From IMG/VR virus record IMGVR_UViG_3300046318_000318: 64,000 nucleotides of DNA; one strand, given 5' to 3'. A program made the translations under genes and the position numbers. Origin of the DNA: a virus (Duplodnaviria; Caudoviricetes). The notes below the pieces were generated by a model, which worked only from the letters and a program-made list of their open reading frames with translations, did not search any database and was not told the DNA's origin. Positions 37,555-38,690 of the stretch are shown in pieces (positions within the stretch are counted from its first letter, which is position 1; each line of letters opens with the position of its first letter).

Positions 37555-38690
37555 ATCTTTAATAACACTTTATTCAAATGTTATTAAAGATACCCAATAT
37601 CACTATTGGGTCTTACCACTTATTACTCACGTAAGACAAAGCTCACATTTTCACATTAGATTCTATATTCTTTTACTCTTATAGACTTTACAGTCAGAGA
37701 TATTCCTTTAAGAATCTTACGTGGGTTTAAAGTCTTTCTACCATATCGTGTTATTAGTACCAGGGGCTGACTATGCAATCTTAGGCTTTTCCTGGATTCA
37801 GTCATGCTACAACTAATAACGCATCAGAGTAATTACTTCTGATATTTGACTTAGGTAATCTCCATTAGACTTATACCTTCTGTATTTAATCCGACCAGAC
37901 TGCCTTTCGCATGTATCTGGTTTTACTGTTTCCAGTAGTGAGCTAAACTCACATTTCGGTCAGATTGGTCCCAGAGTAACTCTGGACTTTGGAGATGGGC
38001 ACCCACTCGTTAAAGTGTTTTACCGTCTTTCGATAACTTTTACGCTCATTGACATAGCATGTGGTTTAAACATCGCTTGTCTTGATGGACTACAAGTTAT
38101 TTTTTCGGTGGCGTCTTGTTTATCTGTCTGCTTAATCGTTGTCGCTATTCCAAGGGCGAGTCCACCCATCCTGGCGAATGAGCTTCAATCTCTCACGACT
38201 ATCCTATAAACTTTTAAGCTTTTCCATTATTTCAGACCTTACAGCTAACGTCTATATCAGGCGATTAATATAGACATATGCGTATCTGTTGTCATGGCGA
38301 CAGATGTTCTCGATGATTGTTCAAGAACATCGATATTCCTCACATGAGTACATTACTGAAACTCATGCAACCTTTTACAAGGACGATATACTTAGGAACG
38401 CTAAGTATAATTAACTGTCTTTCACTCTCGTGTGGAGCTATTGAACTTAAAGCCACCAGTATCAAGACTAATCCTGGTTTCAATGATATTATTTATATAC
38501 CGCGCAAGGCGGTCGAGGTTTTTCTGGTGGGGATTTGATAGACCCTGTCGTTGCAGCAACACGTTTAGCCCTAGCAGACTGCAATCGTTTAAGGCTGTTG
38601 TCTATCTCATCCAGTTTGAACAACGACACAAGGTCGCACGCTCTCCAGAAATAACCCCATGAGAAATCATTCCACATGGCGATCACTTTC
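37555..38690 (-). ncRNA. candidate large structured ncRNA A (about 1.1 kb)
   Basis: dense hairpins, four minus-strand GNRA-capped stems, nested long-range helices; no convincing ORF. Confidence 0.6.

What the first reader, a model, noticed from the sequence alone, without database searches (positions are those of the whole stretch)
37555..38690. Candidate giant structured ncRNA A feeding into the intron-tRNA pair
Seen: four GNRA-capped stems on the minus strand, CCCAAUA-GUGA-UAUUGGG (37593-37610), UACUG-GAAA-CAGUA (37924-37937), CCUU-GUAA-AAGG (38371-38382) and CAC-GAGA-GUG (38423-38432). A nested 5' domain contains UUUCUGG/CCAGAAA and UGUCGUUG/CAACGACA. A run of consecutive hairpins spans 38250-38410. 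A 14-bp stem UAUCUUUAAUAACA/UGUUAUUAAAGAUA ends about 2 nt before the tRNA-Arg 5' end. Strand-biased GNRA loops suggest tertiary folding. I see no obvious sequence similarity to region B.
Basis: partly seen in the sequence, partly recalled or inferred. Interest (0 to 1): 0.82.

Follow-up and report, generated by a model that had tools for sequence, protein, structure and literature searches.

The report
Large modular structured RNA in jumbo phage
The 1.1 kb gene-poor stretch upstream of two intron-bearing tRNA genes in this nucleus-forming jumbo phage is a real, conserved, multi-domain structured RNA of a family not in Rfam. It starts with a short, probably translated reading frame and is built from swappable modules rather than being one uniform giant RNA.

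Summary
The folding z-score (-6.2) does not separate the region from coding controls (-2.3 to -6.1).

Comparison with about 20 metagenomic relatives settles the main question. The region diverges 3-11 % where synonymous sites of the flanking genes diverge 27-34 %. No ORF is conserved after the first 190 nt. Three sub-domains show compensatory base-pair changes: module 2 (38540-38306), domain D (38225-38126) and the terminal double hairpin (37620-37555).

The region is composite:
- The first 190 nt hold a 62-codon ORF with a gene-like ribosome-binding site and distant homologues.
- Module 2 is nearly identical in a phage whose ORF is only 43 % identical.
- The roughly 500 nt segment 3b is found only in close relatives.
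- Modules are lost or reshuffled between lineages.

In distant relatives the terminal hairpin is followed by a U-rich tail. In the window, tRNA-Arg(UCU) starts 2 nt after it, so RNase P would free the RNA.

Rfam, GenBank phages, IMG/VR and the GTDB genomes gave no match. The closest analogues are GOLLD and ROOL, by context only. The function is unknown.

The parts
39015..39053 (-). Phage promoter-like motif (TATA..AAACT..TGACAAT..TGTC) heading the transcription unit. A TATAAT box lies at about 39000-38995.
   Evidence: Repeat family D1, also found upstream of minus-strand genes at about 45850, 43901 and 33989. The same motif sits directly in front of the element in L001 and L007. A consensus scan gives GTGTCA-18-TATAAT.
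38691..38996 (-). Optional inserted ORF (101 aa; 91 aa from the ATG at 38966). It is not part of the RNA element.
   Evidence: Present in the window, L019 and L021. Absent in L001, L007, L008, L010, L012 and L017, where the promoter joins the element directly. No Pfam or PHROG family.
38489..38677 (-). 62-codon ORF (MWNDFSWGYFW...PPEKPRPPCAVYK), probably translated. Its 3' half is also part of the structured RNA.
   Evidence: Homologues P0131-P0135, E from 2e-9 to 1e-3 against 1.8 billion proteins; alignment A3. The AAGAAAG ribosome-binding site matches the one before bona fide genes at 43901 and 45850. The frame is open in L023 and L024, which were found by tblastn. Against: no third-position excess in the N-terminal half, and compensated helices lie inside its 3' half (helices 1-3).
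38306..38540 (-). Module 2, the deeply conserved structured domain. It holds the hairpins ACCGC/GCGGU, ACCAG/CUGGU, GCUC/GAGU, UAUACUUAG/CUAAGUAUA, CCUU/AAGG, CAUGAG/CUCAUG with an inner CA-GNRA-UG, and CGAUG/CAUCG.
   Evidence: nhmmer finds one copy per element in the window and 17 loci, including L024, L025 and L023. An 80-nt stretch is 100 % identical in L024, whose ORF is 43 % identical in protein. 93.7 % of cells are paired, and 15 pairs change on both sides against 1-3 in the slid controls; 0/500 shuffles reach this.
38226..38305 (-). Variable linker with the hairpin GUCUAUAU/AUAUAGAC (38283-38258).
   Evidence: The stem is kept with different pairs in L010 (U-G, G-U), and in L001 through a 2-nt insertion plus a U-to-C change. 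84 % identity to L001.
38126..38225 (-). Domain D: nested helices GUU/AAC, GUCGU/GCGAC, GAG/CUC and an 8-bp hairpin GCUCAUUC/GGAUGGGU. They are flanked by the invariant strands UAGGAUA and UUGGAAUA.
   Evidence: Covariance model R1 finds exactly one copy each in the window, L001, L017, L021, L023 and L025. 99.1 % of cells are paired, 6 of 19 pairs change on both sides, up to three pair types occur per position, and 0/500 shuffles reach this. Invariant U-G pairs point to the minus-strand RNA.
37621..38125 (-). Segment 3b, specific to this lineage. It has no ORF and carries GNRA-capped hairpins at 37952, 37932, 37691, 37652 and 37630.
   Evidence: 96.0-96.8 % identical to five relatives, while flanking genes differ at 7-34 % of third codon positions. 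The 49-aa ORFs are broken by a 1-nt insertion in L017 and by stops in others. Testing substitutions against the window's own MFE fold gives 15 that keep a pair and 13 that break one, so the fold itself is not shown.
37554..37620 (-). Terminal double hairpin: a 7-8 bp stem with a GNRA loop, abutting a 14-bp A/U-rich stem with an 11-nt loop. This is the 3' end of the element.
   Evidence: The loop is GUGA, GCAA or GUAA in all seven sequences of alignment A8 and GCAA in L025. The 14-bp stem has three compensated pairs in L023 by the count; a further G-C pair in L024 is my own reading, and the count scores that position as a one-sided G-U change. Model R2 finds an untrained copy in L025 at 2255-2316 (53 bits, E = 2e-10). 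A U-rich tail follows in L023, L024 and L025.
37248..37551 (-). tRNA-Arg(UCU) split by a group I intron (37517-37289), starting 2 nt after the element.
   Evidence: ARAGORN with introns allowed; Rfam Intron_gpI at 49.1 bits, E = 8e-11. The exon junction follows the U / omega-G rule, giving the anticodon UCU (read from the sequence). Intronless tRNA-Arg(UCU) follows the element in L001, L007 and L024.
36927..37238 (-). tRNA-Ile(CAU) split by a group I intron (37200-36967).
   Evidence: Rfam Intron_gpI at 87.7 bits. The exons match the intronless tRNA of L002 and L006 at 37237-37201 and 36966-36926.
36878..36918 (-). Strong intrinsic terminator that closes the transcription unit.
   Evidence: 19-bp stem followed by a T-rich tail.

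Best explanation
**What it is.** Region A is the body of one phage transcript. The transcript is started by a phage promoter motif at about 39.03 kb and closed by the terminator at 36.9 kb. After an optional inserted gene, it consists of a 62-codon ORF that is probably translated, running straight into a structured RNA of about 950 nt. That RNA is made of separable domains: module 2, a variable hairpin, domain D, a lineage-specific 500-nt segment rich in GNRA loops, and a terminal GNRA hairpin stacked on a 14-bp stem.

**How its 3' end forms.** In distant relatives the terminal stem is followed by a U-rich tract and probably ends the RNA by termination. In the window's lineage that tail is replaced by tRNA-Arg(UCU) two bases downstream. 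The RNA is therefore made as the 5' part of a tRNA precursor, and RNase P cleavage at the tRNA 5' end would release it with the protective hairpin at its 3' end.

**What it most likely does.** I think it then acts in trans as a stable, compactly folded RNA held together by GNRA-loop contacts. That would be the same kind of molecule as GOLLD and ROOL of phage tRNA islands, and it probably acts on the translation or tRNA machinery during infection.

**Shown:** minus-strand structure in three domains, nucleotide-level selection over the whole length, modular architecture, and conserved order of domains.

**Inferred:** co-transcription with the tRNAs, release by RNase P, stability, action in trans, and any target.
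For: **Conservation without coding.**
- 3b, domain D and the terminal hairpins are 94-98 % identical to L001, whose flanking genes differ at 27-34 % of third codon positions.
- No ORF after 38489 survives in all variants, and 1- and 2-nt indels occur.

**Covariation.**
- Domain D: 6 of 19 pairs change on both sides, 99.1 % of cells paired, 0/500 shuffles.
- Module 2: 15 of 73 pairs change on both sides against 1-3 in the slid controls.
- Terminal 14-bp stem: three compensated pairs.
- Invariant G-U pairs and strand-specific GNRA enrichment (7 against 0.96 expected) point to the minus-strand RNA.

**Conserved architecture.**
- L025 (ORF 52 % identical) has the ORF, module 2, domain D and the terminal hairpins in the same order over about 1070 nt.
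- Edges are sharp: similarity to L001 starts at the ribosome-binding site and stops at the last base of the 14-bp stem.
- A promoter motif precedes the element in every lineage.

**Neighbourhood.** tRNA-Arg(UCU) follows directly in the window, L001, L007, L017, L019 and L021 (L019 from its 97.8 % identity to the window over the whole locus), and after two small ORFs in L024.

**Known analogues.** GOLLD and ROOL are phage RNAs 'often near tRNA islands' (Kretsch et al., doi 10.1101/2024.12.08.627333).
Against: - There are no expression data, so co-transcription, processing and stability are all inference.
- The folding z-score is no better than that of coding controls.
- For the largest part, 3b, a specific fold is not supported: 15 substitutions keep a predicted pair and 13 break one. 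3b also has no distant homologue.
- The mosaic make-up (L007, L023, L024) argues against a single obligatory global fold.
- The 5' ORF and its overlap with conserved alternative pairings (CCACCAG or ACCAG against CUGGUGG) fit a cis-regulatory reading at least as well for module 2.
- Only about four independent lineages are known, so the covariation statistics rest on few sequences. The module 2 structure was also derived from the same alignment it was tested on.
Confidence: 0.5

Rival explanations
1. The element acts in cis. The 62-codon ORF is a leader or sensor peptide (proline-rich end PPEKPRPP). Its translation would switch alternative pairings in module 2 and so control read-through of the terminal hairpin into the downstream genes: tRNA-Arg and tRNA-Ile plus TilS here, small ORFs in L024 and L025. 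The RNA would then be a long regulatory leader or 3' UTR rather than a trans-acting product.
For: - The ORF end overlaps the most conserved nucleotides. CCACCAG inside the PPE codons and ACCAG 50 nt downstream can both pair with the invariant CUGGUGG.
- The terminal stem is terminator-like, with a U-rich tail, in L023, L024 and L025. Genes follow it in every lineage.
- The ribosome-binding site resembles that of real genes.
Against: - 950 nt with many GNRA hairpins is far more than any known attenuator needs.
- L007 keeps domain D, 3b and the terminal hairpins but has lost the ORF and module 2. L023 has domain D plus the terminal hairpins alone. These parts therefore have a role that does not depend on the ORF.
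- The genes downstream differ between lineages.
- The window has no U-tract after the hairpin.
Confidence: 0.22
2. The region is an unrecognised mobile RNA element, either an atypical self-splicing or self-cleaving ribozyme or the relic of one. This would explain the sharp-edged presence or absence of modules in a genome full of group I introns and homing endonucleases.
For: - Indels have precise module boundaries: ORF101, 38690-38316 in L007, and 71 nt in L013.
- There are six group I introns in 64 kb.
- HNH genes are inserted nearby in L004, L008, L010 and L017.
- L025 carries a 24-nt stretch identical to the 3' P9 hairpin of a tRNA intron.
Against: - No intron or ribozyme family matches inside A at E <= 10, although the same scan finds both flanking introns. 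L025 gives nothing at E <= 1.
- No split host gene or exon junction surrounds it.
- The order of domains is conserved between the window and L025.
Confidence: 0.08
3. The region is a string of small protein genes, with ORF62 followed by the 46-49 aa ORFs, and the hairpins are incidental.
For: - ORF62 has distant homologues.
- JGI gene callers annotated the 49-aa ORF (38169-38020) and the 62-aa ORF in some contigs.
Against: - The 49-aa ORF is frameshifted in L017 and starts inside the covarying domain D.
- The ORF at 37805-37656 is broken in most variants.
- No Pfam or PHROG hit for any of them.
- 1- and 2-nt indels occur.
- Conservation is far above that of third codon positions, with no 3-nt periodicity.
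Confidence: 0.04
4. The region is non-functional spacer or decayed gene remnants with chance hairpins, and it looks conserved only because the relatives are very close.
For: - The folding z-score lies within the coding background.
- Most relatives are more than 90 % identical.
Against: - The region is 3-11 % diverged where neutral sites nearby are 27-34 % diverged.
- Three domains are recognisable, with compensatory changes, in phages whose proteins are 43-52 % identical.
- GNRA enrichment is not reached in any of 1000 shuffles.
Confidence: 0.02

Closest known systems
GOLLD RNA (Rfam RF01998)
   Same: A large (over 800 nt) multi-domain phage or prophage RNA, often next to or linked with tRNA genes. 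One part is deeply conserved and another variable. Its function is unknown (Kretsch et al.).
   Different: No match to the Rfam model at E <= 10. Here the deeply conserved part is 5' and the variable part 3', the reverse of GOLLD. This element begins with a probable coding ORF. Multimeric cage formation has not been tested.
ROOL RNA (Rfam RF03087)
   Same: A phage-encoded large ornate RNA near tRNA islands with no known protein partner.
   Different: No model match. This element is about twice as long. No ROOL pseudoknot architecture was identified.
Phage T4 stable RNAs (species 1 and 2, rnaC/rnaD) in the tRNA gene cluster (from my own knowledge, not tested here)
   Same: Non-tRNA stable RNAs transcribed with phage tRNA genes and cut out of the precursor by the tRNA-processing enzymes. 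Their function is unknown.
   Different: The T4 RNAs are about 120-140 nt, whereas this element is about 1.1 kb and multi-domain.
Group I introns of tRNA anticodon loops (Rfam RF00028)
   Same: They sit immediately downstream in the same transcript. They share GNRA-loop-based tertiary design, and the same P9-type hairpin occurs in L025's copy of the element.
   Different: Region A has no intron core by Rfam and interrupts no gene.
Leader-peptide attenuators and T-box leaders
   Same: A short ORF or leader precedes alternative helices and a terminator-like stem. A conserved GGUGG strand recalls the T-box bulge.
   Different: No T-box model match. This element is four to five times longer than those leaders, and parts of it persist without the ORF (L007, L023).

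Membership tests
GOLLD RNA (RF01998) | Match to the family covariance model | tested here: not met
   cmscan of 36500-39300, both strands, with lax filters at E <= 10 gives no GOLLD hit. The whole window at gathering score gives none either.
GOLLD RNA (RF01998) | Encoded in a phage or prophage next to tRNA genes | tested here: met
   The window carries a chimallin homologue and a divergent phage DNA polymerase. tRNA-Arg starts 2 nt downstream.
GOLLD RNA (RF01998) | Universally conserved 3' half with a less conserved 5' half | tested here: not met
   Here the deeply conserved part is the 5' module 2, and the 3' 500 nt are lineage-specific.
GOLLD / ROOL | Self-assembly into RNA-only multimeric cages | not testable with these tools
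   This needs cryo-EM or native gels of the transcript.
ROOL RNA (RF03087) | Match to the family covariance model | tested here: not met
   No hit at E <= 10.
Group I intron (RF00028) | P3-P8 catalytic core recognised by the model | tested here: not met
   The scan finds introns at 36974-37227 and 37309-37528 but nothing within 37555-38690. L025 gives nothing at E <= 1.
T-box leader (RF00230) | Match to the family model (Stem I, specifier loop, T-box antiterminator) | tested here: not met
   No hit at E <= 10. The GGUGG resemblance is only my own recollection.
New family proposed here (ORF62 - module 2 - domain D - terminal hairpins) | Domains recognisable by models in independent lineages, in conserved order | tested here: met
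   nhmmer finds module 2 in the window and 17 loci. R1 finds domain D in 6 sources. R2 finds the terminal hairpins in 8, including the untrained L025.
New family proposed here | Base pairs supported by compensatory change | tested here: met
   For segment 3b the test is inconclusive.
Protein-coding small gene (ORF62) | Homologues, ribosome-binding site, and protein-like substitution pattern | tested here: inconclusive
   Homologues reach E = 2e-9 and the ribosome-binding site matches that of real genes. Among close relatives there are 8 synonymous and 7 non-synonymous variant codons outside a hypervariable patch. Against this, codon positions diverge equally in the N-terminal half, and RNA helices covary inside the 3' half.

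The most novel reading that the evidence does not exclude
This is the founding member of a new class of large (about 1 kb) ornate RNAs of nucleus-forming jumbo phages. The RNA would be dual-function: it encodes a small basic peptide that binds its own RNA, and it folds through GNRA contacts into a defined particle or multimer. It would be released from a tRNA precursor by RNase P and would act on ribosomes or tRNAs in the cytoplasm, outside the phage nucleus.
Probability: 0.2. Interest if true: 0.85.

Novelty: new variant of a known kind. Interest (0 to 1): 0.68.

Why it matters
Very few bacterial or phage RNAs longer than 500 nt have a demonstrated conserved structure (rRNA, RNase P RNA, group II introns, OLE, GOLLD, ROOL, HEARO, raiA). 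GOLLD and ROOL were recently shown to form RNA-only cages whose function is still unknown.

A further, unrelated large structured RNA at the same kind of locus, a phage tRNA island, would make the link between giant RNAs and phage tRNA genes a general pattern rather than a curiosity. This one sits in a nucleus-forming jumbo phage, where RNA must leave a protein shell to meet ribosomes.

The natural module swaps provide ready-made deletion variants: L007 without module 2, L024 without domain D, and L023 with domain D and the terminal hairpins alone. The tRNA junction suggests a simple, testable way in which the 3' end is formed.

Tried and rejected
**Rfam.** Tried at gathering score and at E <= 10 on the region, and at E <= 1 on L025. 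There is no family inside A.

**Alternative genetic codes.** No frame opens under TGA, TAG or TAA reassignment. The longest is 124 codons on the minus strand.

**Protein families.** Pfam and PHROGs on nine short ORFs inside the region and on the neighbouring ORF101 gave no credible family; only two marginal matches above E = 0.1 appeared. The ESM Atlas gave nothing for ORF62.

**Sequence searches that found nothing for A.**
- blastn and megablast against 50,697 GenBank phages matched only the group I introns.
- Six IMG/VR scans, three by protein and three by DNA pattern, found nothing.
- One GTDB genome scan found nothing.

**Folding energy.** Sliding 240-nt z-scores and full-length controls were rejected as evidence, because coding RNA of this phage scores as low.

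**Segment 3b.** Its substitutions were tested against the window's own MFE fold and the result was inconclusive.

**Other copies in the window.** I looked for domain D, module 2 or the terminal hairpins elsewhere, including region B, and found none.

**Other leads dropped.**
- A possible 11-nt GAAA receptor (CCUAAG ... UAUGG at about 37785 and 37747) was rejected, because the flanking bases do not form the required helix.
- A first ORF62 codon analysis was run in the wrong frame and then redone.
- The tmRNA region of L024 has no counterpart in region B.
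Full report
**Setting.** The window belongs to a jumbo phage with a chimallin (nuclear shell) homologue at 23196-25064 and a divergent phage DNA polymerase. The nearest GenBank phage shares only 34 % identity in chimallin, and megablast finds no relative. Genes run mostly on the minus strand.

Between the ORF ending at 38691 and the TilS-like gene starting near 36883 there is no ORF longer than 65 codons. Reading the minus strand from high to low coordinates, this stretch holds:
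- tRNA-Arg(UCU) at 37551-37248, split by a group I intron (37517-37289);
- tRNA-Ile(CAU) at 37238-36927, split by a second group I intron (37200-36967);
- a strong terminator at 36918-36878.

Upstream lie a terminator at about 39110-39071 and a promoter-like motif at 39053-39015. That motif recurs in front of other minus-strand genes.

**The observation.** GNRA-capped hairpins with at least 4 bp number 7 on the minus strand against 0.96 expected; none of 1000 dinucleotide shuffles reaches 7. The plus strand has 2 against 0.42 expected.

Folding energy is not informative. z is -6.2 for the region, but eight coding stretches of equal length give -2.3 to -6.1. At 240 nt the genome-wide mean is already -2.0.

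**Relatives.** The TilS-like protein downstream has more than 100 metagenomic homologues. I obtained the following loci by fetching the contigs of the closest ones, by using a spurious 49-aa ORF inside the region as a handle on homologous DNA, and by following homologues of the 62-aa ORF:
- about fifteen close variants of region A: L001, L007-L017, L019, L021 and L022;
- three distant relatives: L023, L024 and L025. Their ORF62 proteins are 50 %, 43 % and 52 % identical to the window's.

GenBank phages, IMG/VR and the GTDB genomes contain nothing similar.

**The region is under nucleotide-level selection and is mostly non-coding.** Against L001, the flanking genes differ at 27-34 % of third codon positions. 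Over the same comparison, segment 3b differs at 3.6 %, domain D at 3 %, the terminal hairpins at 6 % and post-ORF module 2 at 11 %.

Similarity to L001 begins exactly at the ribosome-binding site of the 62-codon ORF and ends at the last base of the 14-bp stem. The tRNAs that follow in L001 are intronless and unrelated in sequence, yet carry the same anticodons.

After 38489 no ORF is kept. The 49-aa ORF at 38169-38020 is frameshifted in L017, the one at 37805-37656 is broken in most variants, and 1- and 2-nt indels occur. No stop-codon reassignment opens a frame.

**Structure is shown for three domains.**
- *Domain D (38225-38126).* L017 and L025 carry one diverged version and L023 another. 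All 19 proposed pairs hold: 99.1 % of cells are paired, six pairs change on both sides, and single positions show up to three different pair types. No shuffle of 500 reaches the observed score, and the slid controls give 0-1 compensated pairs. The invariant U-G pairs would be A-C mismatches on the other strand, so the structure belongs to the minus-strand RNA.
- *Module 2 (38540-38306).* This domain is almost identical in L024, with 80 nt at 100 %, although the neighbouring ORF sequence has diverged. Across seven sequences, 15 of 73 pairs change on both sides against 1-3 in the slid controls, and 93.7 % of cells are paired. One caveat applies: the structure was derived by RNAalifold from the same alignment it was tested on.
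- *Terminal double hairpin (37620-37554).* It keeps a GNRA loop (GUGA, GCAA or GUAA) in every lineage. By the count, its 14-bp stem has three compensated pairs in L023. A further compensated G-C pair in L024 is my own reading. A model trained without L025 finds that locus's copy at 53 bits.

For the 500-nt segment 3b only close relatives exist. When substitutions are mapped on the window's own MFE fold, 15 keep a pair and 13 break one, so its fold is not established. Its GNRA hairpins and extreme conservation still argue that it functions as RNA.

**The region is composite.**
- The first 190 nt are a 62-codon ORF. It has homologues in a 1.8-billion-protein library (E from 2e-9 to 1e-3) and the shared motif RLQS.R..TAAT.G...PPEKPRPP.
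- Its AAGAAAG ribosome-binding site is the same as the one before bona fide genes. The frame is open in L023 and L024, which were found by tblastn and not by gene calls.
- Among close relatives, 8 synonymous and 7 non-synonymous variant codons occur outside one hypervariable patch.
- Against a purely protein reading, the N-terminal half shows equal divergence at all three codon positions. The conserved C-terminal 'protein' motif also coincides with covarying RNA helices, including a V/T swap that is simply a compensated stem (helix 2).
- I therefore rate translation as probable, not shown.

The modules behave independently in relatives:

| Locus | What it carries |
|---|---|
| L007 | Promoter joined directly to 38315; ORF62 and module 2 are lost; domain D, 3b and the terminal hairpins are kept, followed by tRNA-Arg |
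| L024 | ORF62, module 2 and an extra domain shared with L025, then the terminal hairpins (about 590 nt); two small ORFs and then tRNA-Arg(UCU) follow |
| L025 | The full order ORF62, module 2, domain D, terminal hairpins over about 1070 nt; protein genes follow |
| L023 | Domain D plus the terminal hairpins alone, and a separate ORF62 plus module 2 further on |
| L013 | A 71-nt deletion |

ORF101 (38996-38691) is an insertion present only in the window, L019 and L021.

**Mechanism, inferred.** A promoter motif precedes the element in every lineage. In L023, L024 and L025 the terminal stem is followed by a U-rich tract, like an intrinsic terminator. In the window's lineage the tRNA starts 2 nt after the stem, and the first strong terminator lies after tRNA-Ile.

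The simplest reading is a single precursor: (ORF101) - ORF62 - structured RNA - tRNA-Arg - tRNA-Ile. RNase P would cut at the tRNA-Arg 5' end and free the RNA with a 3' hairpin in place. This recalls phage T4, whose small stable RNAs are made from its tRNA precursor (from my own knowledge). What the RNA does afterwards is unknown.

Size, GNRA loops, modular domains and the position in a phage tRNA island match the description of GOLLD and ROOL in Kretsch et al.. I therefore favour a trans-acting, compactly folded RNA concerned with translation or tRNAs.

A cis-regulatory reading remains a serious rival for the 5' part. In that reading, translation of ORF62 would switch the competing CCACCAG/ACCAG-CUGGUGG pairings and control read-through.

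**Comparison with known families.** The scan that found both neighbouring group I introns found no GOLLD, ROOL, T-box, intron or other Rfam family inside A at E <= 10. L025 gave none at E <= 1. The element therefore works in a GOLLD/ROOL-like setting but is not a member of those families. Its conserved half is 5' rather than 3', and it starts with an ORF.

**Verdict.** A real, new family of large structured phage RNA lies here, feeding into the tRNA pair in this lineage. It is a mosaic of domains headed by a small ORF, only about 400 nt of it has demonstrated structure, and its function is open.

Noticed in passing
window 36245-37238 (-): A phage-encoded tRNA-Ile(CAU), split by a group I intron after the anticodon, is followed directly by a short (about 200 aa) TilS-like lysidine synthetase. 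Together they form a self-contained kit for reading AUA codons. The pair is conserved in more than 100 metagenomic relatives, with or without the intron (L002 and L006 lack it; L003 and L004 have it).
   Followed up: partly
window 37248-37551 (-); L001 6766-6842; L007 2626-2701; L024 3749-3823: tRNA-Arg(UCU) has a group I intron between anticodon positions 34 and 35 in the window, L017, L019 and L021, but is intronless in L001, L007 and L024. The L001 tRNA is a different sequence with the same anticodon, so the tRNA has been replaced as well as differing in the intron. ARAGORN miscalls the split gene as tRNA-Ser(GCT).
   Followed up: partly
It has the most negative local folding z-scores in the scan, -7.6 at 49081-49320. 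It gives no Rfam hit at E <= 1 apart from a 17-nt tmRNA 3'-end fragment at 49990-50006 (12 bits, E = 0.034). It holds no copy of module 2, domain D or the terminal hairpins.
   Followed up: partly
window 7080-7407, 19515-19807, 19886-20196, 50131-50339, 36974-37227, 37309-37528: There are six group I introns in 64 kb. Those at about 7.0-7.4 kb and 19.5-20.2 kb share 93 % identical segments (repeat families D4, D6, D7) and sit beside a 532-aa HNH endonuclease ORF (20152-21750). I did not work out which genes they split.
   Followed up: no
window 23196-25064 (-): A chimallin (phage nuclear shell) homologue matches PHROG 4795 at E = 1.6e-78 but is only 34 % identical to the nearest GenBank phage, Burkholderia phage FLC9. 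The window therefore represents a deep, uncultured branch of nucleus-forming jumbo phages.
   Followed up: partly
window 39015-39053, 45833-45871, 43884-43922, 33972-34010, 14834-14872: A repeated intergenic motif (minus strand: TATA.AAACT.TA..TGACAAT..TGTC) lies 25-55 nt upstream of start codons. It is probably the promoter or operator of one temporal gene class. A related motif (TATAACTAACTTGAGAAGATT) precedes the element in L024 and L025.
   Followed up: partly
L004 4033-4488; L008 3887-4468; L010 3672-3974; L017 2782-3303: Free-standing HNH (NUMOD4/HNH_3) endonuclease genes are inserted between the tRNA genes and TilS in some relatives but not in the window. This marks the tRNA island as a hot spot for mobile-element traffic.
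   Followed up: no
L024 4384-4722: The distant relative L024 encodes a circularly permuted tmRNA (Rfam 108.9 bits; tag peptide AANDAEFRMVA) about 560 nt downstream of its tRNA-Arg. No tmRNA is found in the window.
   Followed up: partly
window 61240-61332 (-): ARAGORN's 93-nt 'tRNA-Met(CAT)' lies inside a 514-aa ORF (60259-61803) that has internal repeats (family D8), and Rfam does not call it. It is probably a false positive.
   Followed up: partly
window 27001-53000 (-): The sense-strand RNA of this phage folds more stably than dinucleotide shuffles almost everywhere. The mean z is -2.0 in 240-nt windows, and -2.3 to -6.1 for 1.1-kb coding stretches. This is an unexplained genome-wide property, and it makes z-score screens unreliable here.
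   Followed up: partly
L025 2237-2260; L004 3856-3879: A 24-nt stretch identical to the 3' P9 GAAA hairpin of a tRNA group I intron sits inside L025's copy of the element, just upstream of its terminal hairpins. This hints at past recombination between the element and an intron.
   Followed up: partly
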